A DNA stretch of 64,000 bases from Eledone cirrhosa (GCA_964016885.1 OZ024741.1:239816001-239880000), one strand, 5' to 3'; counted from the first letter of the stretch, positions 3,215 through 43,454 are shown. Notes: generated by a model from the sequence alone, not told the origin. Made by a program: numbers and translations.

Positions 3215-4226
3215 ATATATATACATATATATTGTATATACACATTCATGTATGTGTATACACACTCATGTATGTATATAGACTGGTTTTATGTGTGTAT
3301 TGTAAATTTGTACTGTTAAAACACGAAACTAACATTCGATTGACACTTTGATTACCTGTACAGGCAATAGTTATTAGAATGCTGTTGAAGTGTGTATATA
3401 TTTTTGGGGGACATCCTCTATATACACACATTATATATAATACAATAAACAGATAAATACACACATATATATATGAGCTTATTTAATTATAAATATTGTG
3501 AATTTTTAACTCAGTTCAATTATATATATATAAATGGCTTCTACAGGACTAGAACTGTTTCATTCGAAAGAAATCATCATAATATTGAGAGGGGCGACTA
3601 GATAGAATATTTCAAATCAAATGTGTATAAGTTATAAGTTAAAATGTATAAATAGAGACGATAGTGGAGGTATATCTGTTTAGTGGAACAGTAGACGATA
3701 GAATTAAATACAGACGAGAATCTCCCTTTAATGAAACAGCAGACGATAGAATTAAGGCAATTTAAATTTTAAACATTTGCATTTTTGCCTTTCATCGTTA
3801 CGGGGTCGATAAAATAAAGTACCAGTAATACACTGTCACTATAAGTAGACGACTTTCAAATTGAATTGTTGGTTCCATTTCTTTAGTATTTTCAATTGTA
3901 GTTATCTACTTAAAAAGCGTTACACGGTTAGAGACATAATTGGTAAGTTATATCTTCCCTATTAAACCATTGCATTATTTCGCCTACAATAGAACAAAAA
4001 TGAAATGTTCTTTAAAGAAACAGGAATATAACTTTATAAAAAAAAAAAGTTGCATCCGCTTCTTTTATCATTGATAATTTTTTCGTTTTAATATTAATTG
4101 TTTTTTGTAGTTGTTTATATTAAAAATCTTACTGTAATATTTACTTAAACGAAGGCAGACATCTAAACTTATAGATTAATCTTGAGCGAAGGACTAGATA
4201 AATCTCTCTCTCTCTCTCTCTCTCTG

Positions 4227-4420
4227 AACGAAGAATGATAACATTTCAAGCAAAGAGTTTAATTAGGTAATGACTTACAAATTTGTTTCAGTATATCTTT
4301 AATATAATATTATTAACTAATTATTATAATTAGCGCTTCAGGCTTTGTCTATATACTGAAACAAATTTGTAAGTCATTACCTAATTAAACTCTTTGCTTG
4401 AAATTTTATCACTCTTCGTT
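4227..4420. mobile_element. Fold-back MITE-like element with 70-bp arms (4227-4296, 4351-4420)
   Basis: aacgaagaatgata...cagtatat versus atatactg...ctcttcgtt, 2 mismatches. Confidence 0.75.
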
Positions 4421-4487
4421 TTGAATTTCTCCTAAGTATTCAATACTCTGTTGAGAAATACATTTTACATAAACAGTCTTTGTACCA

Positions 4488-4696
4488 TTTATACGGTATT
4501 AATTACTTATATTTATATATATATATATATATATAGCGTATGATTAGAACTGTGTTTATTATTAATATTTGGTGAATTGGCAGTATCGGTAGAGGGTTGG
4601 ACGCCATGCTTTGACGCATAGAGTTACGGCCCTTGCCATTCTGAGTTCAAATCCCGCCGAGGTTAACTTTGCCTTTTATACGGTATTAATTACTTA

Positions 4697-4735
<39 letters not shown>

Positions 4736-4952
4736 CGTATGATTAGAACTGTGTTTATTATTAATATTTGGTGAATTGGCAGTATCGGTAGAGGGTTGGA
4801 CGCCATGCTTTGACGCATAGAGTTACGGCCCTTGCCATTCTGAGTTCAAATCCCGCCGAGGTTAACTTTGCCTTTCATCCTTATGGGGTCGATAAAATAA
4901 AGTACCAGTAATGTACTGGATAATTGCTGGCCTTGTGCCAAAAGTAGAAACA
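4488..4952 (+). mobile_element. SINE family A (4770-4952, TSD attattaatattt) preceded by a local tandem duplication of its 5' half and flank (about 4488-4676)
   Basis: TSD at 4757-4769/4953-4965; the block atacggtatt...gccttt occurs twice. Confidence 0.85.
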
Positions 4953-4999
4953 ATTATTAATATTTTAATGGATTTAATGAAAAATTTTAGGTGTTCATA

Positions 5000-5069
5000 T
5001 ATATATTCTAAAAATGCGCGAAATCGTGAATCCGCGATAGTTGAACCGCCAAGTAGCGAGGTATCACTG
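5000..5069. mobile_element. pogo/Tigger-like DNA transposon end
   Basis: ...gaaccgccaagtagcgaggtatcactg followed by TA; resembles CAGT-starting Tigger-type TIRs. Confidence 0.4.
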
Positions 5070-5097
5070 TATATATGTTTAAATATATAGTGTAGCT

Positions 5098-5562
5098 GTG
5101 ATGTATCTCGCGAGTGAATCGAGACCTGTCACTGATTTTGGTGTCCCCACTGCCGATGTGAATGAGCAACGCTGCACTTGTGAATTGGGTCTTGATGTTG
5201 CAGGCAGTTCATATACTTACAATGATGCGGTCCCACAAGCTTGTTCACATTCCTGTGCTAATAATCTAGATGGGCGTATTAAATTGGATGTGAAAGCAGC
5301 TTACCGGATGCGGAATCGGGAGAAGTTGAGACAAAAACAGGCCGATTATAGAGCTGTGAATTTTGCTAAATTAACACAAAAACAGGCCAAGTATAGATGT
5401 TCAAAACGGTATGAGTTGGCAAACAAGCAGGCCAAGTATAGATCTGCAAATTCAGCTATTATATCTCAAAAGCAAGCCGAGCGTAGAGCTTCTAAACGTA
5501 CCGAGTTGGCTAAAGAGCAGACCAAGTACAGATCTGCAAATATCTTATTGCACAAACAATAA
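5098..5562 (+). other. ORF fragment with 15-aa (45-nt) basic repeats KQAxYRxxN, possibly a Helitron Rep-helicase N-terminal remnant
   Basis: KQADYR, KQAKYR, KQAKYR, KQAERR, EQTKYR at a regular 15-aa period. Confidence 0.4.
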
Positions 5563-5588
5563 TTCTGCACAAATGTTGCTCCATTATT

Positions 5589-5768
5589 TTGGCAGTATTG
5601 GTAGAGGGTCGGATGCCATGCTTTCCAGCATAGTTACGTCCCTTTACGATCTGAGTTCAAATCCTGCCGAGGTTGACTTTGCCTTTCATCCTTACGGGGT
5701 AGATAAAATAAAGTACCAGTAATGCACTGGGTAATTGCTGGCCTTGTGCCTAAAGTAGAAACAATTAT
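5589..5768 (+). mobile_element. SINE family A
   Basis: A box, B box, core and agtagaaacaattatt tail as in 637-822. Confidence 0.85.
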
Positions 5769-5899
5769 TAGATCTAATGTTGCAACGATACAGTTAAATG
5801 TTGTCTGTGTATTTTAAAAAAGATTTGCTTATAATCTTTTCAAATTTCATTACGCCAATGATTCAAGCTCAAATTGACATTATCTAAAAAATTGTACAA

Positions 5900-6608
5900 A
5901 CAGCGGTGGATTAGCAGTAGTGAACAGATAAATCAGTCAATTTATTAAGATTGACTTGGCCTCAATCAGCAAGACCTTCATTAGCTGCTCTCCAGCCATC
6001 TATTTAAAGCTGTATACATCTATGGTACGAATACACTTGGAGTTCGCGTCATCAGTCTGGAACCCCTATCTTGCTCAGAACATTGACCTCCTGGAAACTG
6101 TTCAGAGACATGCAACCAAGCGCATACCCTCCATCAGACACCTACCATACCCTGAATATTTTGCTTCCGTCTGGCAATGGACTTGGTAAACACCCACAAA
6201 GTTATTAACCATCCGACCAACAACAACCCCGAACACCTTTTTGATCTCCATGTGTTTAACACGTGGACATGCCTACAAAGTCAGAAAACAACACAGCTCC
6301 CATGACTTTAGGAAATATTTCTTCATGCTCAGAGTTGCTGAAGGATGGAACAAACTTCCTGCATCAGTTGTTAGCTGATGACACACTGCATCCTTTAAAA
6401 CCATCATACATTCCGAAATACACCAAAACTACACCTGATGTCCCCCTTCCATACACATGCACATATGTGTATATCATGACTCATGCACTGTTCTTTTTTC
6501 CTGACGTTTTTATATTACCCTATGTATTATATATGCACTTTTGATGAGTTGTAGTGCACCTCAGCATTGTACACAATATTTTCATTATTATTATCATTAT
6601 TATTATTA
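5900..6608 (+). mobile_element. 5'-truncated CR1-like LINE 3' end with (ATT)n tail
   Basis: LYTSMVRIHLEFASSVWNPY...LETVQRHATKRIP; same family as 25430-26880. Confidence 0.85.
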
Positions 6609-7802
6609 CACTCATTCATTGATCCATTTTGCACTAACTCTGCATCAAGCACCCTCACCTAAATATTAACCAATCAAGGATCCAATACAGCTATCTGTTG
6701 GATGAGTATTGTATAGTGCCAAAAACGAAACCAATCAGTTTAGCAGAAAGTTTCCAGACAAGAAACACGCATATTTTGCTATCCTCAAACACGTTTACAC
6801 ATGGCATGAAATATAACTAATCCGAGATGGCTAGGTTTCATCTTCTAATTGGATATACGAAATCCATTATGTCTTGACAACAACATGAGGTAACATTATG
6901 TTATTCACAGACACACTTTGTACACTGTTCCATATCAGAATGTATTTCCTTCGTCACATTCACAAACAGTATTGAAAATATGTTCTTCGGCAAATAAAAA
7001 TGTTTTGTTCATAATATTTCAACTAGCGATTGCTCTACTTCACGCACGACCACCATAAATTAATGACCAGCTCAACACAAGTATTGGTAGAGCGTCAGAC
7101 ACCATGCTTTGCAGTATTGTTATGGTCCTTTGCATTCTAAGTTCAAATCCTGCCGAGGTTAACTTCGACTTTCATACTTACTAATTCGATAAAATAAAGT
7201 ACCAGTAATGGACTGCCGTAATGGATTTGTGCCGAAAAATAGAAACACTATTAATGTGCAATAAGAGCAAAATATAACGACATTGCTCAATTATTTTATC
7301 TAATGTTGTAATAACACAAGGAAATGTTGTTTGTGTATTTTTTTTATATTTGCTCATAGGCTTTTACAATTTCGCTCAGCCAACAAATATTAAAAAGTGA
7401 GTTGCTTAAGATAACAATTTAATCACAAATTGTTGCTATCTTTTAATACACTCCAACAAGTCATCAAATTATGTACAATAAAAACAAATCTTATTAATTT
7501 GCTCAGGGAATATAAAGAAAATGTATATACACTGATAATTGCAATTGTATGTAAATATTTTGTTTTTGTATTGTTTATTTTATGTTTTCTATTATGTATA
7601 ATATATTGATTTAATATTGATTGTTTTTTGTAGTTGTTTATATTAAAAGTCTGAAAATATTTTTATACATCTTACACTAATATTTATAAGATAATTTATA
7701 ATAACAATTACATAATCTAATTACATTACAACGATAATTTATTATTAATATATATCCTGTTTAACTAGAGTTATTACAAGCGTTGCCTTAAAAAAATATT
7801 AA

Positions 7803-8759
7803 ACTAGACATGAAAAATGCGCAAGCTCAAAAGTGCCACAGAATGTTATAATAAACCTTCAAAAGTGTGGGACTAGAGTTGTTGCTAAAAAATATTGTAA
7901 TCATTATATATCGTACATTCTGTGGCATCCTTTATAAAAATAGCTTAAACCAACGAAGCCTTTATTTTTACGCTATTTCACTTAGTTAATTCTTAGAGTG
8001 TAACATATAAAAATAAATACATCTATGTTTAATGTAATAACAGCTATAAATAATTACGTAATATTATTATCATATACTCATAGTAACAAAATAATTGTGT
8101 TGAAAATTAATATGATGCTTATATGAACGATCAAATCTATAATGATAATTTCTTAAATATACTAATAGTAAAATAATTTAGTTATCTATTGTTACATTTT
8201 CATAGAACTATAATATTAACAATCGTATTGCATTATCAAATTTTTATCACTACAAACTTTCATATTGGAATTACCTTAAGCCACTTATTATTACTTCGCT
8301 TTCGTACTTTTACAGCTGTAGATATTGCGCTGTATCTTATATCTAATATCAATATCTCATGGTAATTTGCATGCAGTGTAAAATAGGTTTATTAATAACT
8401 TTAATATGAAATGTATTATACAGGGCTGCGGAGTCGGCCAAAAATTGACTGGCTCCAACTCAGGATCCGATACTCCATTATTTCCTAAATTTCAGCTCCG
8501 CAGCTCTGTTATTATATTAATTAATTTATTTTATAGTTGTAAATCATATTTTTATATGTTACACTCTAAGAATTAACTAAGTGAAATAGCGTAAAAATAA
8601 AGGCTTCGTTGGTTTAAGCTATTTTTATAAAGGATGCCACAGAATGTACGATATATAATGATTACAATATTTTTTAGCAACAACTCTAGTCCCACACTTT
8701 TGAAGGTTTATTATAACATTCTGTGGCACTTTTGAGCTTGCGCATTTTTCATGTCTAGT
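7803..8759. repeat. Second copy of the 213-bp-arm inverted repeat
   Basis: Same arms as 2258-3214 shifted by 5545; no arm mismatch seen. Confidence 0.92.
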
Positions 8760-8914
8760 ATATATATGTATGTATATATATATGTATATATATATGTATA
8801 TATATGTATATATATATGTATGTATATATATGTATATATAATGTATGTATATATATGTATATATATATGTATGTATATATATGTATATATAATGTATGTA
8901 TATATATGTATATG

Positions 8915-31599: not shown

Positions 31600-32054
31600 G
31601 CATTTTAAATAAGCAATTGGAAACTAAAAGATTTCTTAGTTCATCAAGATTTTCCCTCCACAAAATAAAACACTCATCTAGGTATCTTTTCCAGTTTTCT
31701 GAAGGTACTCCCATAAATTTTTGAAGCTTTTTCGTAGATTTTTAGTTCATGGTATCCCATGACTAAGTTGGCATATACTGGTCTTTGATACAGATGGCTG
31801 TTCCTGATTTCTGTTGGCAGGGTGCTTCGGTGAATAGGAAGTGGTTGTTTTTTTTAATGAATTCAAGACTTTCTATGATGAAATTTCTGTTAATACGGTC
31901 TGGTAGCTCATGGGGTAATGTGTTTAGCCAGTATCGGATAGTTTCAATTTTATAGTTGTGAGAAATGTTACTATATAAGTTCACAACATCAAATGAAAGC
32001 ATCTAGATATTTTGGTTTACTTTATTTGGTAGATTGTTGAGGAAATCTAGGTCA
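31600..32054 (-). mobile_element. Penelope-like element RT, downstream part (pseudogenised)
   Basis: DDLDFLNNLP..LSFDVVNLYSNI..FIKKNNHFLF..QQKSGTAI. Confidence 0.85.
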
Positions 32055-32152
32055 TCTGTGGTGGAGAGGCGGTAAGAGTGTTAAGCTCGCAGTCACCTCC
32101 TCTCACCACCTCATTGAAAGACATCGAAAATGTCGTTAGTTTTGAAAACACG

Positions 32153-33810
32153 ATGTCAGACGTTGATTGTAACATCAACACTAACACAAACACCAATAAC
32201 ATACAAAATATAAACAACACCAACCAGAACAACAACAACAACAACAACAATAATGACAACAAGAACAACAACAACAACAATGATAACAACAACACCACCA
32301 ACAACAACAGCAACACGAACAAGGAAAAGATTTCTTTTGCTCAAACCGTCCAAAAGACGGAACTGTTCACATACCTTGACATTTTCAATGATAGGGAAAT
32401 GTTAAGTGATGCAAAACAGTATGTAACTTTTGGTGAGAGTGGTACTTTCAGCATCACTTCTCCTCAACAGTTACGCAGAGAAACTGTTCTAAAAACAGTA
32501 ATTTTTAGGACGGGTTCAAATGTGTCAAAAAAACCAGTTCAATTATTCCAAAACGACATTGAACTGGTTCTGAAGAATTCCATGAAGGATATTGTCTTCA
32601 TCCAAAAAGGGAAACTTTTTAGAAGCATTTCGGTATTGTTGAAAGACCAATTGACAGCACAAAAATATTCTGTATCGCCGATTGTGTCCCTCTTTACACC
32701 TTTTCCCCCACATATATGGGGAAAACAAAAGATAAAAATTTCGAACATTGCACTAAATGTAAACGTCTGGTGGATTTTAATTGGCTTCATCGATTTCGAC
32801 GAAGACACCATCATTTCGGTGGGAAAGTCCTCCAGAGGCACATTCAATGGTACAAGCATGGAAGTTCTGGTCCAAATGAGGCCAGAACCGATAGCTAAAA
32901 TACCCCAACGCGTGCCTCTGGATGGAATTTCACACATAAACATTTCTGTTGAGGGTAGGCGGCCTTCATGTTACCACTGTTTAAGCAGTGGTCACCTGAA
33001 GGCTTACTGTCCTCAGTTAACTACAAAAAAAAAGAGGCACTACTGCCAACACCCAAAACAACAACACCACCACCACCACCACCACAACAACAACAACAAC
33101 ATGCAAACATAACCAAAACAAGAACAACAAACCAACCTGCAAGCACAGTCCCACCCAACCCCACTAAAACCACTGCAAAAACACCCACAAACACAACAGC
33201 TCCCCAAAACATACCCCCTTTCAAATAACACAGACACCACAACGGACGAGGCCCCCACATCATCACCAAGTGACGGTGAGGGAGAGCCTCTCCATTCGAA
33301 AAGAAAGAAGAAAAGACACAAGAACAAAAAAACAACAAACATCACTACAAACATACAACCACCAACACAAACATTACAAATAACCCCCCCCCCCGTCCCG
33401 AAAACAAAACCACGACATCACTCCTACAAACACCTACAACAAAACGAAAGCTCCCACAAGAACAACAGACAAAAACCACTGCAACACAACAAGAACATTA
33501 CACATACATAAACAGTAAAAACAAAACTTTAATGGAGGTCATCTCCAATGACCCTTCGGTGAAAACCGAAGGGAAAACTTTTTCGAACTGTGTAGACAAA
33601 CCTAATTTAAAGATGATTAGGGTCCCTACGGACACCTATAAGTCTTTAAAGGAAAACTTTCCTAAGGACGTGGGTAATCCTTGTGTTAAACCCATTAACC
33701 GCGTCCTTTTAAAAAGTTTTCCCACCCTCACCCCAGACACACCCACCCCACCAAACATCTCCGTCCCCCACCCTGCCGGAAACCACCACCCACCCAGACA
33801 ACCCCTCTAA
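32153..33810 (+). pseudogene. Tx1-like ORF1 (poly-Asn N-terminus, CCHC zinc knuckle, Thr/Pro-rich tail), frameshifted
   Basis: ATG at 32153; CYHCLSSGHLKAYC; frame shifts at the A-run near 33025. Confidence 0.8.
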
Positions 33811-33899
33811 CACCCCCATGGAAATCGTGCGGCCTGGTCCCCGGGAGACGAAGAGGTGAGTGTTTTCTTCTCCTCTTCTTTTAACTTTTCAGAACCAAC

Positions 33900-36800
33900 A
33901 TGGCCAATATAAGAGTTGGATGTGTGAATGTACGCGGCCTGGGGATGCCCTGGAAACAGGGAAAACTCTTAAGCGACCTCAGGTCGCACAGTATGGATGT
34001 AGTAGCCATTTGCGAGTCCAGGATCCACAGCGAACGACAGCTGCCCCCCATCTTCGATGACTTTGAGATCTACGCATCTCTCTATCAGCCAGGGGGTGGG
34101 GGCGGGGTTACCGTTTTGCTGCGGAAACACCTGGGCCTCGTAACACAGATGGTACATCTGGACCTAGAGGGTTGACTGGTGTTCCTAGACGTTGACGGTA
34201 GTGAAGGTGGAGCCTTCAGACTGGTGGCCGCATATGCCCCATCCGGGACACCGCGGCCAGACTTCTTCAAACGTCTAGAGACTTTTCTGGGAACGTCCCG
34301 CTCCTTGCTTTTAGTGGGGGACTAGAATGGAATCCTAGATGCACGTTGGGACTATATGGGAGCATGTCCCGATAAAAGGGGTTTAAAATCCTCAAACAGT
34401 TAATCGACCGATTTGACCTGGCCGATAGATATCGACTAGATTTTCCGACTGTGTCACTGTGAACGTGGACTAATCGTAGCGGAACATCTAGATCGTACCT
34501 AGATAGGGTTCTAGTTAGAAACAAGAATAGGGACATTTTAAGCTGTCCACAAATGTTCATGGTTGCCTATTCAGATCACAAACTAGTGACCTGCATGGTC
34601 AACCTTGATAGAACCCATAGACAAAGACCCGGCTACTGGAAGCTGAACTTGTTGTTACCAACATGCAAAGCCTACAGTAGACGGATTAACACTTTAGTTA
34701 AACAGCACTTGACAGGGGCCATTGTCAACAACAGATGGTGGTACTCTCTCAAGAGGGCAGTTAGATTAGACTCGTTAGTTTTTAGTAAAGAATTAGCGTT
34801 AGATAGAAATAGGACCGAGAAGGAACTGGTAGATAAAGTAGAAGAGGCAATTAGAAGTGGAAACATAGCCAGCGTGCTAGCAACGAGAACGGCCTTGGAC
34901 CAGTTCTTCGACGCAAAGCACGAGGGCTGCGTTGTCAGAAGCAAAATACGTGCTCTGGGAAACAAGGGAGCCAAAGCTGTTAGGTGTGCCCCGAGTGACG
35001 GAGGCAAAAAGTGGCAACAAGTCCTTGATTTGGTCTTTGAAGGACCAAGATGGATGCGTGATACTTTGCGGCAGCACTTTGCTCAACTGCGGCACTTTGC
35101 TCAACTGTTCGGGCAGGGCGGCGTGCCGGGAGGGGCTATGGATTTCGGTCCATACCTCGACGGCCTACCGCGACTCTTGAACAGCGAGGCGAAGTTCTGC
35201 GAAAAGCCAATTTCAGCCGCTGAGATAGGGGACGCGCTGAGCCAATGCAGCAAACGCAAATCTCCAGGTCTCGATGGTCTACCCTACGAATTTTACGTAG
35301 CAATGCCGGACTTGTTCTCCAGTCTCCTGGAAGCGGTCTACTGCAACTGGCAGCAGAACGGAAGAATTTCCAGTTCTGTGACCAGGGGCGTAGTCACACT
35401 AGTCAGGAAGGACGAGAATAAGGGGGATAACATAGGCAACTTCCAGCCCATAACTCTGCTAAACACAGAGTTACAGATTTTGGCCAAGGTGTTGGCAAAG
35501 AGGCTGGCGCTTGTCATCGAAAACCTGGTGGGAGAAGCGCAGACATGCGCAATCCCGACCAGGTCCATACACAACAACCTTCACCTCATGCGATACATCA
35601 TAGAGAGGGTAGGGTGTAAACCCGGATTCGGTGGGGCCCTGATCAACTTGGATGAGTATAAGGCTTTCGATAGGGTTGACCATCGTTACCTGGATGCGGT
35701 GCTCGAGGCGGCAGGCTTCGGACCCGTGTTCAGGGGCTGGATTGCTGCAATGCACAACAGCAACATCTGCTCAAGGGTCAAGGTGAATGGCTACCTCTCG
35801 GAGCCGTTCCATATCACGCGATCCATCCGACAGGGATGCCCTCTCTCCTCCCTTCTGTACGTACTGACCCTCGAGCCACTACTGCAGAAGTTGGTGCTAT
35901 TGCAGGGCATCCCTCTAGAAACGGGACTGCGAAAAGCGGCGTTGGCCTACGCCGACGACGTGACAGTAATGGTCTCGAACACCTCGCAAATCGAGGAAGT
36001 CGGCATCTTACTGAAGGAATACGAAAGGTTAACAGGAGCAAAGTTGAACCGGGACAAGTCCGTCGGTTTGCAACTCGGATCGTGGAGAGGCAAACCGATG
36101 CCTTCCGATGGTGTCGTCGGACGCTGGACGGAAGGACCGGTAAAGCTCCTCGGGGTCTGGTTTGGTCCGGACCTCCAGGTGGAGAAAAACTGGAACGAGG
36201 TGACGGCCAAGGTATTTGCACTCACCCAGAAGTGAGCCGAGTGCAAATTATCCTTGAAAGGTTGAGCGGAGGTGGCGACACTTTTATAGCGTCCGTCATC
36301 TACTACCGCTTAACTGTCGGGCTCACCAAAATGGAGCGCACGCTCTTCCAATTCCTTTGGTAGAAGCGGGCTCCTTTGGTGAGAAGATCCATCTGCTGGC
36401 AACACCCTTCCAACGGAGGGCTGGGAATGCCGTGGCTGACGATGCGCAAACAGGCTGCGGCACCTCTACGTATTCCTTACCGGACCCCGTTTGTGAGGCG
36501 AGCCTTCCCACGACTCGTCTCGCTGACCTAGCTGCAGTCCTGAGTCAAGCAAAGACCGAGGAAAATGGGCGACTGGCACATCGAATGTGCTCAGGCACTC
36601 ACAGCCCTCTGGCAGGCAGACCCGGCAATCAGTGGAGACTCCACTTCGTCATTCTATAGAGGGTTGATCCGCAGCAAGTGCGACAACGCACTCGGAGAAA
36701 CTCTAGGCGTAGAGGAAGACGAACTGGCCAGTCCGTTCGGTAGGACCTTCCACCCGGGACCAATGCACAACTTCCAAAAGTCCCTGGCCTGGCAGTGCTA

Positions 36801-37267
36801 CTGAGGAGCTCCACCAGTTCGAGACAAGCTCTACAGACATGGGCGCTCGGGCAGGAACCCTTCGAAAAAGATCTGTCCGAGATGCGTGCGAGACGAAGAA
36901 ACCGTTGCGCACGCATTCATAGACTGCCCGGGCATTACCGACCTGTGGGGCTATGTAGAACGACTATTGTCGCGGGTGGGACCAATACGGTTGACCACCG
37001 AGTCCATTGTCATGATCAAACCGCCACCCTCCTTCAAAAATGAAGGAGAGGCGGTTTTCCTTTGTGTGATAGCTATAGCGAAAGAGGTTGTATGGTGGAC
37101 GAGGTTAAAAGGGCTGAGGTCAGAAACCTTTCTCTACGGCCAACAACTTTGGAAGAAGAATCAGGATGGAGAGAGAGGTGCTGTACCCCAGCAAGTTTTA
37201 TGAAAGGTGGGTGAAAGTGGCGAGAATGGCCCGAGTGAATGGGCCTTCTCTCTATATCAGCCTGTAG
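33900..37267 (+). pseudogene. Tx1-like ORF2 (APE endonuclease, RT, C-terminal Cys/His domain) with stops and frameshifts
   Basis: CVNVRGL, DVVAICES, YSDHKLV, SPGLDGLPYEFY, PITLLN, KAFDRVDH, QGCPLS, LAYADDV, CPRC..EETVAHAFIDC. Confidence 0.92.
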
Positions 37268-37506
37268 GTTGAGGAAAAAGAGGAAGAGAGGAAGGGGGTA
37301 CAAACTCTTCGTACTCCTGGAAATGAGGGTTGCACATTTTTTCGGGAGTATGTGTTACCCATATGAAATGTCTCCCCCTATTGGGGAAAATCGATTAATT
37401 TTTAAATTACATTTGTGATAGCATTTTACACGTTTTTATTGTATGTAAACTTCCCCCTTTGTATTTGTCCCCTTCTTTTGTGACCCTGTGGCTAATAAAG
37501 AAACAT

Positions 37507-39369
37507 ATCTATCTATCTATCTATTACTAAAACTCTGTGATTGCTTGCTTGCTTGTTTGTAATGTAATACAGCCAAAAGGGCACATAATGGGGAAATACT
37601 TTGCAAGGAAGTTGACTTTGAAATGGGAATACAAATGGAATAAAACAAGTTTTGCGTAAATCGGAGGACGGGTACCTTCATAAACAGAGAGAGAGAAGGA
37701 TAGAGAGAAAGAGATAGTGGTTGTGAGAGAGTAGATTGAAAGATAGACTTAGAGAGAGGGACAGGGGGCAGAGAAGGAGAATGGAAGAGAGAAAGAGAGA
37801 GAGAGCTGTTGGTGTTGTTGTGTGTATATATATATATATACCTGTGCAGACTGGAAAGGAACGAAGCATGCATGCTCCATTGGATGTGTAATAGTAATAT
37901 ACATGAACGGCAAAGCATAAGTGAACTAAGTGAGAAATTAGGAATAAGAGGGATCAGATGCTGTTTACTTGAGAGAAGACTACGTTGGTATGGTCACGTG
38001 ATGCGCATGAAAAACGACAGCTGTATAAAAAAGTGCAGGGCGATCAAAATTGATGGTAGTTACGGAGTAGGTAGACCCAGAAAAACCTGGGACGATCTGA
38101 TAAATTCCGACCTTACACACTTGCACCTCTCTAAGACAATGTCACTGGACCAAGAGCTTTGGCGCTACACAGTAATACAGAAGACCTGCTTTGCCTATGT
38201 ACAAAGCGAAACCTACAGTCAGTAGGCACCTCTTAACCAAATATACACCCCAATCCATTACCCCTATGCTATCCCACTCCCACCAACACCACCCTCTCTC
38301 TATAAAGTTGGTACCACAACATCCAGTCCAAATAAATGAGATAATGAGATCGAGATCGTGTAGGTGTCACGACAAAAAAAAAAACTCACAGTCCACGCTG
38401 TAATGTGGACGTGTAGGTAACACGGTAAAAAGTTCCCAGTTCCACACTGTAAATGTGGTTGGTGTTAGGAAGGGCATCCAGCCATAGAAAACATGCCAGA
38501 TAGTCCTATACGAGCTAGACATGGTCACCCAACCAACCTTGCCTCAAGTGGCACAACTCCCGTCTAACCCATGCTAGCGTGGAAGATGGACGTTAAACAA
38601 TGATGATGATGATGATGATTAATGTGTGTGTATGTATATATGTGTGTGTGTGTCTATGACCAGTGTATATAGATCACAGACACCCACATATATATACACA
38701 CACACATACATATATATATATGAATAAAGTGGTCCTTCATCAGTGATCTTCCAACCATCATCGGTATTTCTTCGCTTTAAAGACCATATACCTCCGGTTG
38801 GTGCGAGCAACGGCTAAAGAAAGTCGTTGGGACATGTAAATAAAGGGAACAGCGAGAGTGTAAACAAACAAAGATGGTGAAGCAACGAAAAGTGAGGAAG
38901 AGCGAGTCAAGTCCAAAAATTTCCATGAATATAAGTTCGGTGAAATCGTGAACGAGAGAGAATAAAGACCATCAAACCTGGTTGAAATGTGAGCAAGGAA
39001 GGAATTTCGCACAGGTCTAACGGGAGGAAGAAGGGATCTAGTCTGTGAATTCGGTAAACATAAGTTCTGTGAAATCGTAGACGAGAGAGAGAGAAAAAAT
39101 GCCGACCGGCCTGGCCAAGTGTGCGAAAGAAAAGAATTACGCACAGGTCAAACGGGAACACACACATTTATATATATTCACATACACACACATATATACA
39201 TGGGCCTTCCAGTTTCATTTCATATTATATACATGTCTGTGAATATTTTAATTATTTAAAAATTATTTTTAAGTGAACATTATTTTTAGAAAAATATCTT
39301 TAAGTGAACATTATTTTTAGAAAAATATTTTTAAGTGAACATGACCCAACTGGTCATAGGGGGGTCTAG
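37507..39369 (+). mobile_element. Non-autonomous Helitron unit 1, carrying nested insertions
   Basis: 5' tctattactaaaactctgtga; 3' atgacccaactggtcat hairpin then gggggtCTAG. Confidence 0.7.
37841..38619 (+). mobile_element. RTE 3' fragment nested in the Helitron (TA)n tract
   Basis: LERNEACMLHWMC..RRLRWYGHVMRM..GRPRKTW; (GAT)n tail. Confidence 0.9.
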
Positions 39370-39766
39370 TATATTACTAAAATTCTGTGATTGCTTGCTT
39401 GCTTGTCTGTAATGTAATACAGCCAAAAGGAGGCATAATAGGAAAATACTTTGTAAGGAAGTTGACTCTGAAATGGGAATACAAATAGAATAAAACAAGT
39501 TTCGCGTAAATCGGACCACGGGTTCCTGAGATATGGGGTTTTTCCGGGTACCTTCATAAACAGAGAGAGAGAGAGAGGGAGAGAAGGATAGAGAGAAAGA
39601 TAGTGGTTGTGAGAGACTAGATTGAAAGAAGGACATAGAGAGAGGGAGAGGAGACAGAGAAGGAGAGTGGAAGAGATAGAGAGCTGGTGTATACATGTCT
39701 GTATATTTTAATTATTTACAAATTATTTTTAATGGAACATGACCCAAAGGATCACGGGTGGTCGAG
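39370..39766 (+). mobile_element. Non-autonomous Helitron unit 2, head-to-tail with unit 1
   Basis: Same 5' body as 37517; ends gacccaaaggatcacgggtggtcgag. Confidence 0.7.
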
Positions 39767-39888
39767 TATATATATATATACATACACACATATATATATA
39801 TGTATATATATACATACATACACACTCACACACACATATATATATAAATAAATATATATATACATACATACACACTCACATATATATA

Positions 39889-39963
39889 CAGGGTGTCCTA
39901 AAAATGTATACACACTTTCACAGCATTCTAATCAGTGTGTATACATTTCTTTGGGACACCCTG
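39889..39963. mobile_element. Tc1/mariner-type mini-MITE
   Basis: TA|cagggtgtcc...ggacaccctg|TA; related single ends at about 30-73 and 3375-3418. Confidence 0.85.
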
Positions 39964-40067
39964 TATATATAGAAACACACACAAGCATACACATATAGAA
40001 ACACACACAAGCATACACATATATAAACACACACACAGGCATGTATATATAAACACACACATATATA

Positions 40068-40380
40068 TGGAGTCACTCCGTTGGTTACAACTACAAGTGT
40101 TCCAGTTGATACTATCAACGGAACAGCCTATTCGTGAAATTAACGAGCAAGTGGCTGAGCATTCCACTGACACGCATACCTTCTAAGTAGTTCTAAGGGA
40201 GATTCAGTGTGACACTGTGTGTGACAAGGATGGTCCTTCGAATTACAGCTACAACTCATTTTTGCAAGCTGAGTAAACCAGAGCAATGTGAAGTAAAGTA
40301 TCTTGCTCAAGGACACGATACGTCGGGGGGAATCGAACTCACAACCTTACGATTGTGAGCCGAATACCCTAACCACGCAC
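40068..40380 (-). mobile_element. tRNA-derived SINE family B (tRNA-Val(CAC)-like head)
   Basis: Minus strand gcgtggttagggtattcggctcacaatcgtaaggttgtgagttcgattccc, then gtgtccttgagcaag core. Confidence 0.8.
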
Positions 40381-40384
40381 TTTC

Positions 40385-40425
40385 ACACATAAATACACAT
40401 ACAAACACGCACACATTCACCCACA

Positions 40426-40511
<86 letters not shown>

Positions 40512-40845
40512 CACAAACACATACACATGCTCACACACACATATACAAGCACACAGGCACACATACATATATAAACACACACACACGAACATATAAACAC
40601 ACACACATATATAAATAAACATGCACACACACACACACACACACATAAACACACACATACATATATATATAAACACACATAGATACAAACACACGCACAC
40701 ATATATATATAGAGACATACAAACACGTACACATATTTATACACACACACACAAATATATATAAACACACACATATATTACACGCACACACACACATACA
40801 CACATATATATATACACACACATATACATATAAACACACTCATAT
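40385..40845. repeat. Compound (CA)n/(TA)n microsatellite
   Basis: Direct reading. Confidence 0.95.
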
Positions 40846-40924
40846 ATAGTCACTTTACTGTGAAACCCAATATTAAAACATTTTTCTACCCCCTACAATT
40901 CTTTTGTCACTTTTTCTCAAAATA

Positions 40925-42290
40925 TTACCCCTCTCTCACTGAAACATAACACCATTCTCACCCTCTCACAATTCTCCCTCTCTCTATATACCATTACATA
41001 CCTCACTCCTCTCACTTCTTTAATTTCCACTCTCTCATTAAACCACCAAATTCTCCCCCCCCTGTCTCTATCCTACTACATACCTCACTCTCTCTCAAAA
41101 TTCCCCCTCTCTCACTAGACCACAAAATTCACTTATCTTCTCTATATCTCACTACATACCTCAATCTCTCTTACAATTTCCCCTCTTGCACTAAAGCAAC
41201 AAACGCTCTCCCCCTCTCTATGTTCCACTACATATCTCACTCTCTCTCTCAATTCCCCCTCTCTCACCAGGCCAATAAACTCTCTCCCCCCTCTCTGTAA
41301 CCCAATACATACCTCACTCTCGCTCACAATTCCGCCTCTCTCACTAGATGACCAAATTCTCCCCCCTCTCTATATTTCACTACATACCTCACTCTCTTTC
41401 ACTCTCACAATACCCTCTCACTAAACCAACAAATTCTCTCCCACTTTCTATAACCCACTACATACCTCACTTTCTCTCTCACTAAACCAACAAATTTTCT
41501 CCCGCTCTCTATATTCCCTACATACCTCACTCACTCTGACAATTTCCCCTCTCTCACTAGACCACTAAATTCTCTCCCACTTTCTATAACCCACTACATA
41601 CCTCACTTTCTCTCTCACTAAACCAACAAATTTTCTCCCGCTCTCTATATTCCACTACATACCTCACTCACTCTGACAATTTCCCCTCTCTCACTAGACC
41701 ACTAAATTCTCTCCCCATCTCTATATCTCACTTTCTCCCTCAATCCCCCTCTCTCACTAAACCAACAAACTCTGCCCCCTCACTCTGTGCCACTACATAC
41801 CTCACTTTCTTACAATTTCCCCTCTCACACTAGACCACCAATCATTATCTCTCTCTATATATCCTATTACATACCTCACTCTCCCACAATTCTCCTTATC
41901 TCACTAGACCACCAAATTCTCTACCCCTCTCTATATACCACAACATACATCACTCTCTCTCTCTCACTTTTATAATTTCCTCTCTCTCATTAAACCAACA
42001 AACTCTCTCCCTCTCTCTCTCTTTCTATTCTACTACATATCTCACTTCTCTCACAATTCCCTCTCTATATATCTCACTACATACCTCACTCTCTCACTAA
42101 AACACCAAACTCTCTCCCCCTCACTCTATACCACTACATACCTCACTCTCTCTCTCAATTCCCTCTCTCTCACTAGACTACCAAATTCTCTCCTCTCTCT
42201 CTATATTTCACTACTTAATCCACTCTCTTTATTCCCTCACTCACACTAAACCAAAAAAGTATCGCCTGCTCTCTATATCCCACTACAATA
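40925..42290. repeat. Pyrimidine-rich minisatellite, about 60-80-bp units
   Basis: Recurrent ctacatacctcact...ctctcactagaccaccaaattctc; near-exact higher-order repeat 41430-41570 / 41570-41710. Confidence 0.9.
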
Positions 42291-42566
42291 TATTTTTTAC
42301 TTTGAAACAACAAATGTTTTCATCTTCTGTAAAGAATGACAAAGTTCTCCATCCCCTCACCTTTTGAACCCCTGGGGTGTGAGGGAGATCTTTATTTTTT
42401 GGTGGTGTGCTTTTGCTGAAGTATTTGACAGGAGTTCAAAATATGTGATGCTGAAGGGTGGTGGTGTGTTGGTGTTGAGAGTAGCATGGTGATGATGATA
42501 GTGGTGGTGTAGAGGATGGTGGTGGTGGTGGTAGTGTTTGTTTATTTTGAATATATCTATTTATTT

Positions 42567-43047
42567 ATCTATTTACTACTAAAACTCTGTGATTGTGTGC
42601 TTGTCTGTAATGAAATACAGCCAAAATGGTGCATAATGGGAAAATACTTTGAAAGGAAGTTTCCTTTAAAATGGGAATACAAATGGAATAAAACAAGTTT
42701 CGCGTAAATCGGAGCACAGGTTCCCGAGATATGGGTTTTTTCCGGGTACCTTCCTAAATAGAGAGAGAGAAAGAGATAGTGGCTGTGTGTGTGTGAGAGA
42801 GAGAGAGAGAAGGAAAATGGAAGATATGGAGAGAGAGAGCTGGTGGTGTTGTTGAATGAAATTATAACCGGTGACTTCAAAGGATCGAATACAGCATTAC
42901 TGTATCCTGCTAAATAGGAAAGGTTTCTAAGTGTGTGTGTGTGTATATGTATATATATATATTCATTGATAAAAGATCAGAGGCCATATTCAGTTGACTC
43001 AGGTTTATTTAAAACTCCGTTATACATATTTTACTGAGGTGGTCTAG
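42567..43047 (+). mobile_element. Non-autonomous Helitron unit 3 (5' body plus terminal ggtggtCTAG)
   Basis: Same 5' body as 37517 and 39370; the 3' terminus abuts the Penelope sequence; subterminal hairpin not clear. Confidence 0.55.
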
Positions 43048-43454
43048 TCTCATATAAAACTCCGGATGTGTTTGATGAGAGGTTTTAATAAGATTTCAAG
43101 GAAATTACTAAGTCGATGTTTCTTACAAATTGGGCCTGCTATTATGGATCTTGTTTTTAAATCGATTGGTGTGGGTATATTTACACAGTTTGTTTTCATC
43201 GTGCTGTATGTTTCATTAATTAGTTTATGTTTGTGCTCTTTAGACAGGTCATACAGATTGCTTTACTTCTAAAATTCGTGAGATAGTCAAATTCCTTGTC
43301 TGTTAGGCAGGTTTGGTATGGGTGTAGTAAATCAGTGAGTTGTTTCATCACCTTATGATGTTTGTACACCTTGGCTTCTTCATAGTATGCATTGTCTCAT
43401 AGCATGTTCTGTATAGTGTTTTTGTAATGGTTTGTGTCCATAATGACAACTGAG
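43048..43454 (-). mobile_element. Penelope-like element RT, upstream part
   Basis: Manual translation: SVVIMDTNHY..LTDKEFDYLTNF..LKTRSIIAGP..HRLSNFLEILLKPLIKHIRSFI. Confidence 0.8.

What the first reader, a model, noticed from the sequence alone, without database searches (positions are those of the whole stretch)
32055..43047. 11-kb nested insertion splits a Penelope RT precisely in frame
Joining ...ggaaatctaggtca (ends 32054) to tctcatataaaac... (starts 43048) restores a continuous minus-strand Penelope frame, KHIRSFI*DDLDFLNNLP...SFDVVNLY. The insert begins TC, ends CTAG and sits between A and T, matching the Helitron rule. Inside are a Tx1 LINE, three related Helitron units, an RTE, a SINE, a MITE and a minisatellite. 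This gives an order of invasion (Penelope, then Helitron, then Tx1/RTE/SINE) and suggests either in-place growth or Helitron carriage of retroelement cargo. Caveat: TCT on both sides could instead be a 3-bp TSD.
Basis: partly seen in the sequence, partly recalled or inferred. Interest (0 to 1): 0.75.

Follow-up and report, generated by a model that had tools for sequence, protein, structure and literature searches.

The report
Cargo-carrying Helitron splits dead Penelope
An 11-kb stack of jumping genes sits inside a dead Penelope retroelement: about 4 kb of it is one copy of a multi-copy rolling-circle transposon that likely arrived already carrying a SINE, a MITE and a minisatellite, and four other elements likely landed in it afterwards, which is an ordinary and known kind of nesting.

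Summary
The split is real. In 13 of 29 paralogous loci both Penelope halves could be placed, and they abut with no gap (11 exact, 2 off by one). "In frame" carries no meaning, because the host is a stop-ridden RT fragment. The insert's ends are those of a non-autonomous Helitron family with RepHel-coding relatives in the genome, so the 3-bp TSD reading is unlikely. MITE, SINE, minisatellite and the last unit recur together at many other loci, and the SINE carries an 8-nt head deletion seen in 28 of 28 composite-type copies and in none of 36 free ones: these parts are inherited cargo, likely captured once by terminator read-through. Likely order: SINE and Penelope, then the compound Helitron, then LINEs. 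Compound Helitrons with SINE cargo are in print (bats, Anolis). The scan noted related Helitron nests elsewhere in this genome, not this family. New member of a known kind.

The parts
31628..32054 (-). Penelope-like element, downstream part of the RT fragment (residues 197-344 of a 680-aa relative), with stops and frameshifts
32055..32057 (+). TCT: likely the stranded 5' tip of Helitron unit 1; not part of the LINE
   Evidence: all 39 other matches to the junction query begin at or after 32058; family starts with (TCTA)n; assignment inferred
32058..37507 (+). Tx1-like LINE, nearly full length, missing part of its 5' UTR, decayed ORF1 and ORF2; family sits in (TATC)n
   Evidence: 2-3% from its family majority
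37508..39369 (+). Non-autonomous Helitron unit 1 (interrupted twice), ends in hairpin plus CTAG
37840..38616 (+).
   Evidence: 39 of 39 other matches cover only the LINE side, at 92-99% identity, none spans the junction
38722..39158 (.).
   Evidence: 0.3% from majority
39370..39766 (+). Helitron unit 2, internally deleted, joined head to tail to unit 1; terminus degenerate (GGTCGAG, weak hairpin)
39884..39966 (.). MITE with terminal inverted repeats in a TA run; inherited cargo
   Evidence: within 600 nt upstream of the SINE in 13 of 28 composites
40068..40385 (-). SINE with an 8-nt deletion in its head; inherited cargo
40835..42555 (+). Unique left arm, about 76-nt minisatellite, unique right arm; inherited cargo
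   Evidence: right arm followed by a Helitron 5' part in 23 of 29 other loci
42556..42962 (+). Helitron unit 3, 5' and middle parts
42963..43039 (.).
   Evidence: the deletion is inferred
43040..43047 (+). Last 8 nt of the Helitron terminus (TGGTCTAG; 10 nt with the shared GG)
   Evidence: family terminus
43048..43452 (-). Penelope-like element, upstream part (residues 59-197 of the relative), cut at 43452 by another LINE fragment

Best explanation
A compound non-autonomous Helitron, present at many other loci with the same MITE, SINE and minisatellite inside, sits between an A and a T of a decayed Penelope fragment, where it likely inserted as one piece without a target duplication, and a Tx1-like LINE, a second LINE and two small elements likely landed in its microsatellites afterwards. 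The compound likely arose once, elsewhere, when a RepHel transposase started at the 5' end of one unit, missed that unit's terminator, copied the flanking DNA (which held the MITE, the SINE and the minisatellite) and stopped at the terminator of the next unit; it was then amplified in trans. Shown: the empty site, the family ends, the RepHel relatives, the shared cargo junctions, the unshared LINE junctions, the divergences. Inferred: the read-through origin, arrival in one step, the order of the later insertions, and the deletion at the right end.
For: Empty site: 11 of 13 scorable paralogues exact, 2 off by one. Ends: 53 of 53 family termini found in the fetched loci are followed by T; 15 of 16 recognisable (TCTA)n starts follow an A, while 19 further starts were unclassifiable and 13 were tandem. 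Partner: of 20 RepHel loci fetched, L384 has both ends of the unit, L389 has its 3' end and a 1127-aa Helitron_like_N + PIF1 frame, L390 and L395 have related ends. Cargo: 24 of 29 best SINE matches share the window's flanks; the 8-nt head deletion is in 28 copies, 26 with the composite flank and 2 with a (CA)-type flank, against 36 full heads none of which has that flank, 2 unclear; of 28 composites, 20 have a minisatellite arm, 13 the MITE, 18 a Helitron part within range (two of 30 rows, L190 and L233, dropped as a locus-edge hit and a non-composite hit). L247, a whole composite, splits another LINE's RT at a site whose paralogue L223 is uninterrupted. Of 15 composites with an upstream Helitron part, 14 show no terminator before the cargo and 1 a degenerate one; the window's is degenerate too. 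Local arrivals: no second locus spans the Penelope/LINE, RTE/unit or right-end junctions among 39 other candidates scored in each search; non-CpG distance to family majority is 7-9% for Penelope, 6.9% SINE, 4-5% Helitron units and right arm, 2-3% over five larger Tx1-like segments, 0.3% young element.
Against: No other locus reproduces the whole window architecture; L249 comes closest (unit, unit, SINE, right arm, unit, end) but lacks the MITE. 10 of 28 composites show no Helitron part within range. Only one composite (L247) was tested for an empty site, and it has lost a few bases at its 5' tip. The SINE tree is a star and does not group cargo copies. None of 23 tandem junctions keeps the TC start, so unit 1 may have inserted into unit 2's head rather than being a rolling-circle concatemer, here or before arrival. 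L213 has an RTE and a relative of the young element in the same two internal runs, which shows these runs are reused; its copies are about 80% and 86% identical to the window's, much less than free copies, so I read them as independent. Searches score only 40 candidates each. Divergence errors for the short units are 1.5-2 points, and the RTE (about 6%) and the 75-nt piece (4%) are not shown younger; the RTE is shown young only.
Confidence: 0.78

Rival explanations
1. The Tx1-like LINE entered the Penelope first with a short ATCT or TCT duplication, and the compound Helitron later inserted at an A|T in the LINE's tail.
For: It gives exactly the same letters at both borders. LINE 3' ends of a related subfamily lie directly before a Helitron start in 2 of 29 unit loci (L097, L100). 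Duplications of a few bases around other copies are plausible (L356, L358).
Against: The LINE is 2.1-3.2% from its majority over five segments of 340-900 sites, the Helitron units 4.0-4.8% and the cargo 4.6-6.9%. The family sits in (TATC)n runs (23 of 29 3' ends; four truncated 5' ends), which the Helitron head offers and the Penelope site, with one ATCT, does not.
Confidence: 0.09
2. The Helitron part was assembled in two or more Helitron steps at this site: the cargo-bearing composite came first, and unit 1 (or units 1 and 2) then inserted into its 5' end.
For: All 23 tandem junctions lack the TC start, as expected if one unit inserts at an A|T inside another's TCTA run. Most composites have one upstream unit, not two.
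Against: The same dimer junction is very common elsewhere and L249 has dimer plus cargo, so it can be inherited; the three units do not differ in divergence.
Confidence: 0.1
3. Everything grew in place: the SINE, MITE and minisatellite recur inside this Helitron family because its TA/CA runs are insertion hotspots hit independently many times.
For: The internal runs are reused (L213; L207).
Against: Independent insertions would not all carry the same 8-nt head deletion, the same flanks and the same order of three parts. The deletion removes most of what looks like the A box (motif recalled), so such a SINE is unlikely to have moved by itself.
Confidence: 0.03

Closest known systems
Compound Helitron HelibatN539 of vesper bats (Thomas et al. 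2014, PMC4224331; read: abstract passage, search passages, section 15)
   Same: [quoted passage not shown]
   Different: Cargo there is a host gene region with a known parental locus; here it is repeats only and no parental locus was identified.
Anolis Helitron-2N3 and non-autonomous hobo_AC families (PMC3014272; read: passages)
   Same: A non-autonomous Helitron family that carries SINE and Poseidon fragments; shared deletions in embedded retroelements used as lineage markers, as done here.
   Different: Described there as rare for Helitrons; here it comes with flanking units and a minisatellite and in many structural variants.
Helraiser read-through (Grabundzija et al. 2016, PMC4778049; read: passages)
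   Same: TC/CTRR ends, AT target, 3' hairpin as terminator; flank capture 11.7% with and at least 36% without the hairpin.
   Different: Experimental; here read-through is inferred from structure.
Microsatellite- and transposon-targeting Tx1 elements: Kibi, Koshi, Tx1L (Kojima 2015, PMC4494074; read: passages)
   Same: L1/Tx1-type LINE that sits in a short repeat and so ends up inside other transposons.
   Different: Target here is (TATC)n; clade membership was not tested with a tree.
Oversized non-autonomous Helitrons inflated by nested TEs (PMC12001565; read: passages)
   Same: Large Helitron-bounded inserts explained mainly by later nesting.
   Different: Here part of the bulk is inherited cargo.

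Membership tests
Canonical Helitron (non-autonomous) | 5' TC | tested here: met
   Family starts (TCTA)n; window insert starts TCT, separated from the rest of unit 1 by the LINE (assignment inferred)
Canonical Helitron (non-autonomous) | 3' CTRR | tested here: met
   48 of 53 termini CTAG, 4 CTAA, 1 CGAG; the search pattern allowed only these endings; window ends CTAG
Canonical Helitron (non-autonomous) | Subterminal hairpin | tested here: met
   Folds in L389 and unit 1, weak in unit 2, absent at the window's outer end; met for the family, lost in this copy
Canonical Helitron (non-autonomous) | Insertion between A and T without TSD | tested here: met
   the TCT ambiguity remains at this one site
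Canonical Helitron (non-autonomous) | RepHel-coding partner with the same ends | tested here: met
   L384, L389
Compound (end-bypass) Helitron | Same cargo between Helitron ends at several loci with different flanks | tested here: met
Compound (end-bypass) Helitron | Parental locus with the uncaptured flank | tested here: inconclusive
   None recognised among the loci; searches score 40 candidates each
Penelope-like element | RT and GIY-YIG in one frame | tested here: met
   In the relative L411, 40-50% identical to the window halves; the window holds only the RT part
Penelope-like element | Terminal repeats with hammerhead ribozymes | not tested
   The window copy has lost both ends; feature recalled
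Tx1 clade LINE | ORF2 with AP endonuclease, RT and C-terminal zinc finger | tested here: met
   RVT_1 over cut-off and zf-RVT below cut-off in the window; nearest proteins mostly carry PF03372, PF00078, PF13966; nearest solved relative is L1 ORF2
Tx1 clade LINE | Target preference | tested here: met
   23 of 29 3' ends followed by TATC-type repeat; truncated 5' ends preceded by it
Tx1 clade LINE | Placement in the Tx1 clade by RT tree | not tested
   No named Tx1 reference was returned
tRNA-derived SINE | tRNA-like head with A and B boxes | tested here: inconclusive
   No tRNA family hit in Rfam; box-like motifs read by eye from recall in the full heads
MITE | Short, non-coding, terminal inverted repeats, TA flanks, dispersed copies | tested here: met
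Spliceosomal intron (would restore the RT) | GT...AG on the Penelope strand in an open frame | tested here: not met
   None of the four possible cut registers starts with GT; stop next to the junction

The most novel reading that the evidence does not exclude
This compound family is a natural, genome-wide record of terminator loss driving Helitron growth: variants that lost the inner terminator were copied preferentially, and so spread a promoter-damaged SINE, a MITE and a minisatellite as passengers to many sites, each a fresh landing pad for (TATC)- and TA-seeking elements.
Probability: 0.35. Interest if true: 0.4.

Novelty: new member of a known kind. Interest (0 to 1): 0.22.

Why it matters
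Little for biology of the host: no host gene is involved and every part is dead. For repeat annotation it is a useful case. A SINE count or age curve in this genome will include many copies that were amplified by a DNA transposon and not by retrotransposition, and nesting order read from one locus (SINE inside Helitron, so SINE later) is wrong here. The family also offers a natural series for testing whether loss of the inner terminator predicts which compound variants spread.

Tried and rejected
Intron or splice-out reading: no GT start in any register, host frame broken. TCT as part of the LINE: other copies have different letters there. LINE or RTE as cargo: no shared junction among scored candidates. 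SINE tree: star-like, 2 of 36 inner branches supported, and one free copy (L293) was mislabelled by my pattern; uninformative. Rfam over 39800-43100: 14 matches, all microRNA families below their thresholds, on TA runs and the MITE hairpin; treated as chance. PDB search with the Penelope relative: no match. Sequencing runs: contigs of one sample, which may be the source of the assembly, span 43010-43337 without differences, so the right junction is not a scaffolding artefact in that sample; no listed piece bridged the left junction, no empty allele or orthologue was listed, and the listings were cut, so order could not be tested. The young element had almost no cover in a second organism's contigs, but contigs do not show absence. 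16 of the 20 RepHel loci fetched have other ends. A look-up of earlier notes by the right-arm/unit junction found nothing. Literature: seven searches ran; none of the listed titles or abstract starts describes this family, but Repbase-type libraries and supplements (for example the repeat library of PMC13282606, of which I read part 1 of 3 and no supplement) were not seen and may hold it. The host looks like an octopus from its repeats (recalled impression, not tested).

Full report
Setting. The window lies at G000:C2:239816001-239880000 of a 3.0-Gb animal genome and is dense in repeats. No host gene is involved in the finding.

The split. The two halves, 31628-32054 and 43048-43452, match the same paralogous loci. 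Of 29 other loci, 13 could be scored at the junction: 11 have no gap and 2 are off by one through a nearby indel; L006, for example, reads AAATCTAGGTCA|TCTCGTAGGAAA. A 680-aa relative has RT and GIY-YIG in one frame, and the halves cover its residues 59-197 and 197-344. So it is one Penelope-like copy. It holds less than half of the frame, with stops and frameshifts, one stop lying next to the junction. Any insertion without loss or duplication leaves the halves in frame; nothing suggests splicing.

The ends. The repeated unit is a family that starts with (TCTA)n TATACTACTAAAAC and ends with a GACCC..GGGTC hairpin and GGTGGTCTAG. All 53 termini found are followed by T, and 15 of 16 clear starts follow an A. 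RepHel-coding Helitrons number at least 150 matches over the cut-off; of 20 fetched, L384 has both ends of the unit, L389 its 3' end plus a 1127-aa Helitron_like_N/PIF1 frame, and L390 and L395 related ends. The unit is thus an internal-deletion derivative of a canonical Helitron. The window's right border is the last 8-10 nt of this terminus; the hairpin was lost together with most of a second element whose first 75-77 nt remain. The left TCT is not LINE sequence and fits the unit's start, the rest of which follows the LINE at 37508.

What was carried. The minisatellite's right arm is followed by a unit start in 23 of 29 other loci. MITE, SINE and left arm recur in the window's order. Of the 29 best SINE matches, 24 have the window's flanks and 5 are free copies. 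One ancestral insertion, then amplification as a passenger, is the simple reading. Of 28 composites (30 rows less two false ones), 20 have a minisatellite arm, 13 the MITE, 18 a Helitron part and 3 none of these in range. One whole composite, L247, splits another LINE's RT at a site that is empty in L223, so the event seen in the window is not unique in kind. A tree of the SINE copies was a star and adds nothing.

How the composite likely arose. Its plan is unit, cargo, unit. Of 15 composites with an upstream unit, 14 lack a terminator before the cargo and one has a degenerate one; the window's ends GGTCGAG with a weak hairpin. This fits read-through to the next unit's end, shown experimentally for Helraiser (PMC4778049, passages) and described for HelibatN539 (PMC4224331, section 15). 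It is inferred: I found no parental locus, and later decay could also remove terminators. The unit1-unit2 junction is common, but none of 23 such junctions keeps the TC start, so it may come from one unit inserting into another's head, as another note of this scan proposes for other Helitrons. Whether unit 1 arrived with the rest is open.

What came later. The Tx1-like LINE (32058-37507) is 2-3% from its family majority; its family sits in (TATC)n, which the Helitron head provides. No other scored locus shares its truncated 5' junction, and none of 29 other 3' ends is followed by a unit start, so it is neither cargo nor Helitron-specific. The second LINE matches free copies at 92-99% over its 5' 161 nt, none crossing the junction. 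The piece at 38722-39158 is 0.3% from its majority. L213 has older relatives of both in the same runs, which I read as independent hits on reused sites. These four later pieces make 6,741 of 10,993 nt.

Order. Penelope 7-9% and SINE 6.9%, Helitron parts 4-5%, Tx1-like 2-3%, young element 0.3% (errors of 1.3-2.3 points on the short parts). LINE-first with a short duplication gives the same letters and is disfavoured only by these ages and by target preference. Public runs gave no orthologue to settle it.

Comparison. Helitrons with retroelement cargo are described in bats and Anolis, where Helitron-2N3 carries SINE and Poseidon fragments (PMC3014272, passages); oversized Helitrons from nesting in PMC12001565 (passages); Tx1 elements in microsatellites and transposons in PMC4494074 (passages). 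PMC6544945 (passages) gave only background on capture models. PMC13282606 (part 1 of 3) dates Penelope-like, Helitron and LINE/SINE expansions in that order in Octopus vulgaris, which may or may not be relevant, since the host was not identified. Seven searches listed no description of this family; repeat libraries and supplements were not seen.

Verdict. Observation confirmed, interpretation partly supported, new member of a known kind, interest 0.22.

Noticed in passing
window:40950-42260: Minisatellite monomers hold the reverse complement of the Helitron terminus (11-nt match in 2 monomers, 10-nt in 5); 1 of 5000 shuffles reached 11 nt, but the monomer was picked after seeing the match. In L326 the minisatellite is fused to the terminal hairpin at this motif.
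   Followed up: partly
L234, L237, L243, L325, L335: A sister subfamily of the Tx1-like LINE (about 75% to the window's 3' end) sits in the composite's minisatellite at TATATC-like sites in five loci, with differing downstream letters.
   Followed up: partly
L390:1-930 and L395:175-930 (reverse strand): RepHel-coding relatives carry a tandem array of a MITE related to the cargo MITE near their 5' end.
   Followed up: partly
window:1-3280 and 3345-8828: Local duplication at 98-99% identity in three blocks, the second copy carrying extra inserts.
   Followed up: no
window:45234-46304: 27-nt satellite, about 42 copies.
   Followed up: no
G000:C20:3.5-5.2 Mb and C27:13.0-15.5 Mb: Near-identical Helitron Rep matches recur at roughly 100-200 kb spacing, mostly on one strand, as if inside a very large tandem unit.
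   Followed up: no
G000:C17:10292940-10344386: Four LINE matches spaced about 17 kb apart, suggesting a tandem array.
   Followed up: no
L328 and L329: Two nearly identical composites about 1 Mb apart on C1, probably a segmental duplication; they count as one event.
   Followed up: partly
L182:1500-2580: The young family has long inverted arms and internal duplications of its own end, in TA runs.
   Followed up: partly
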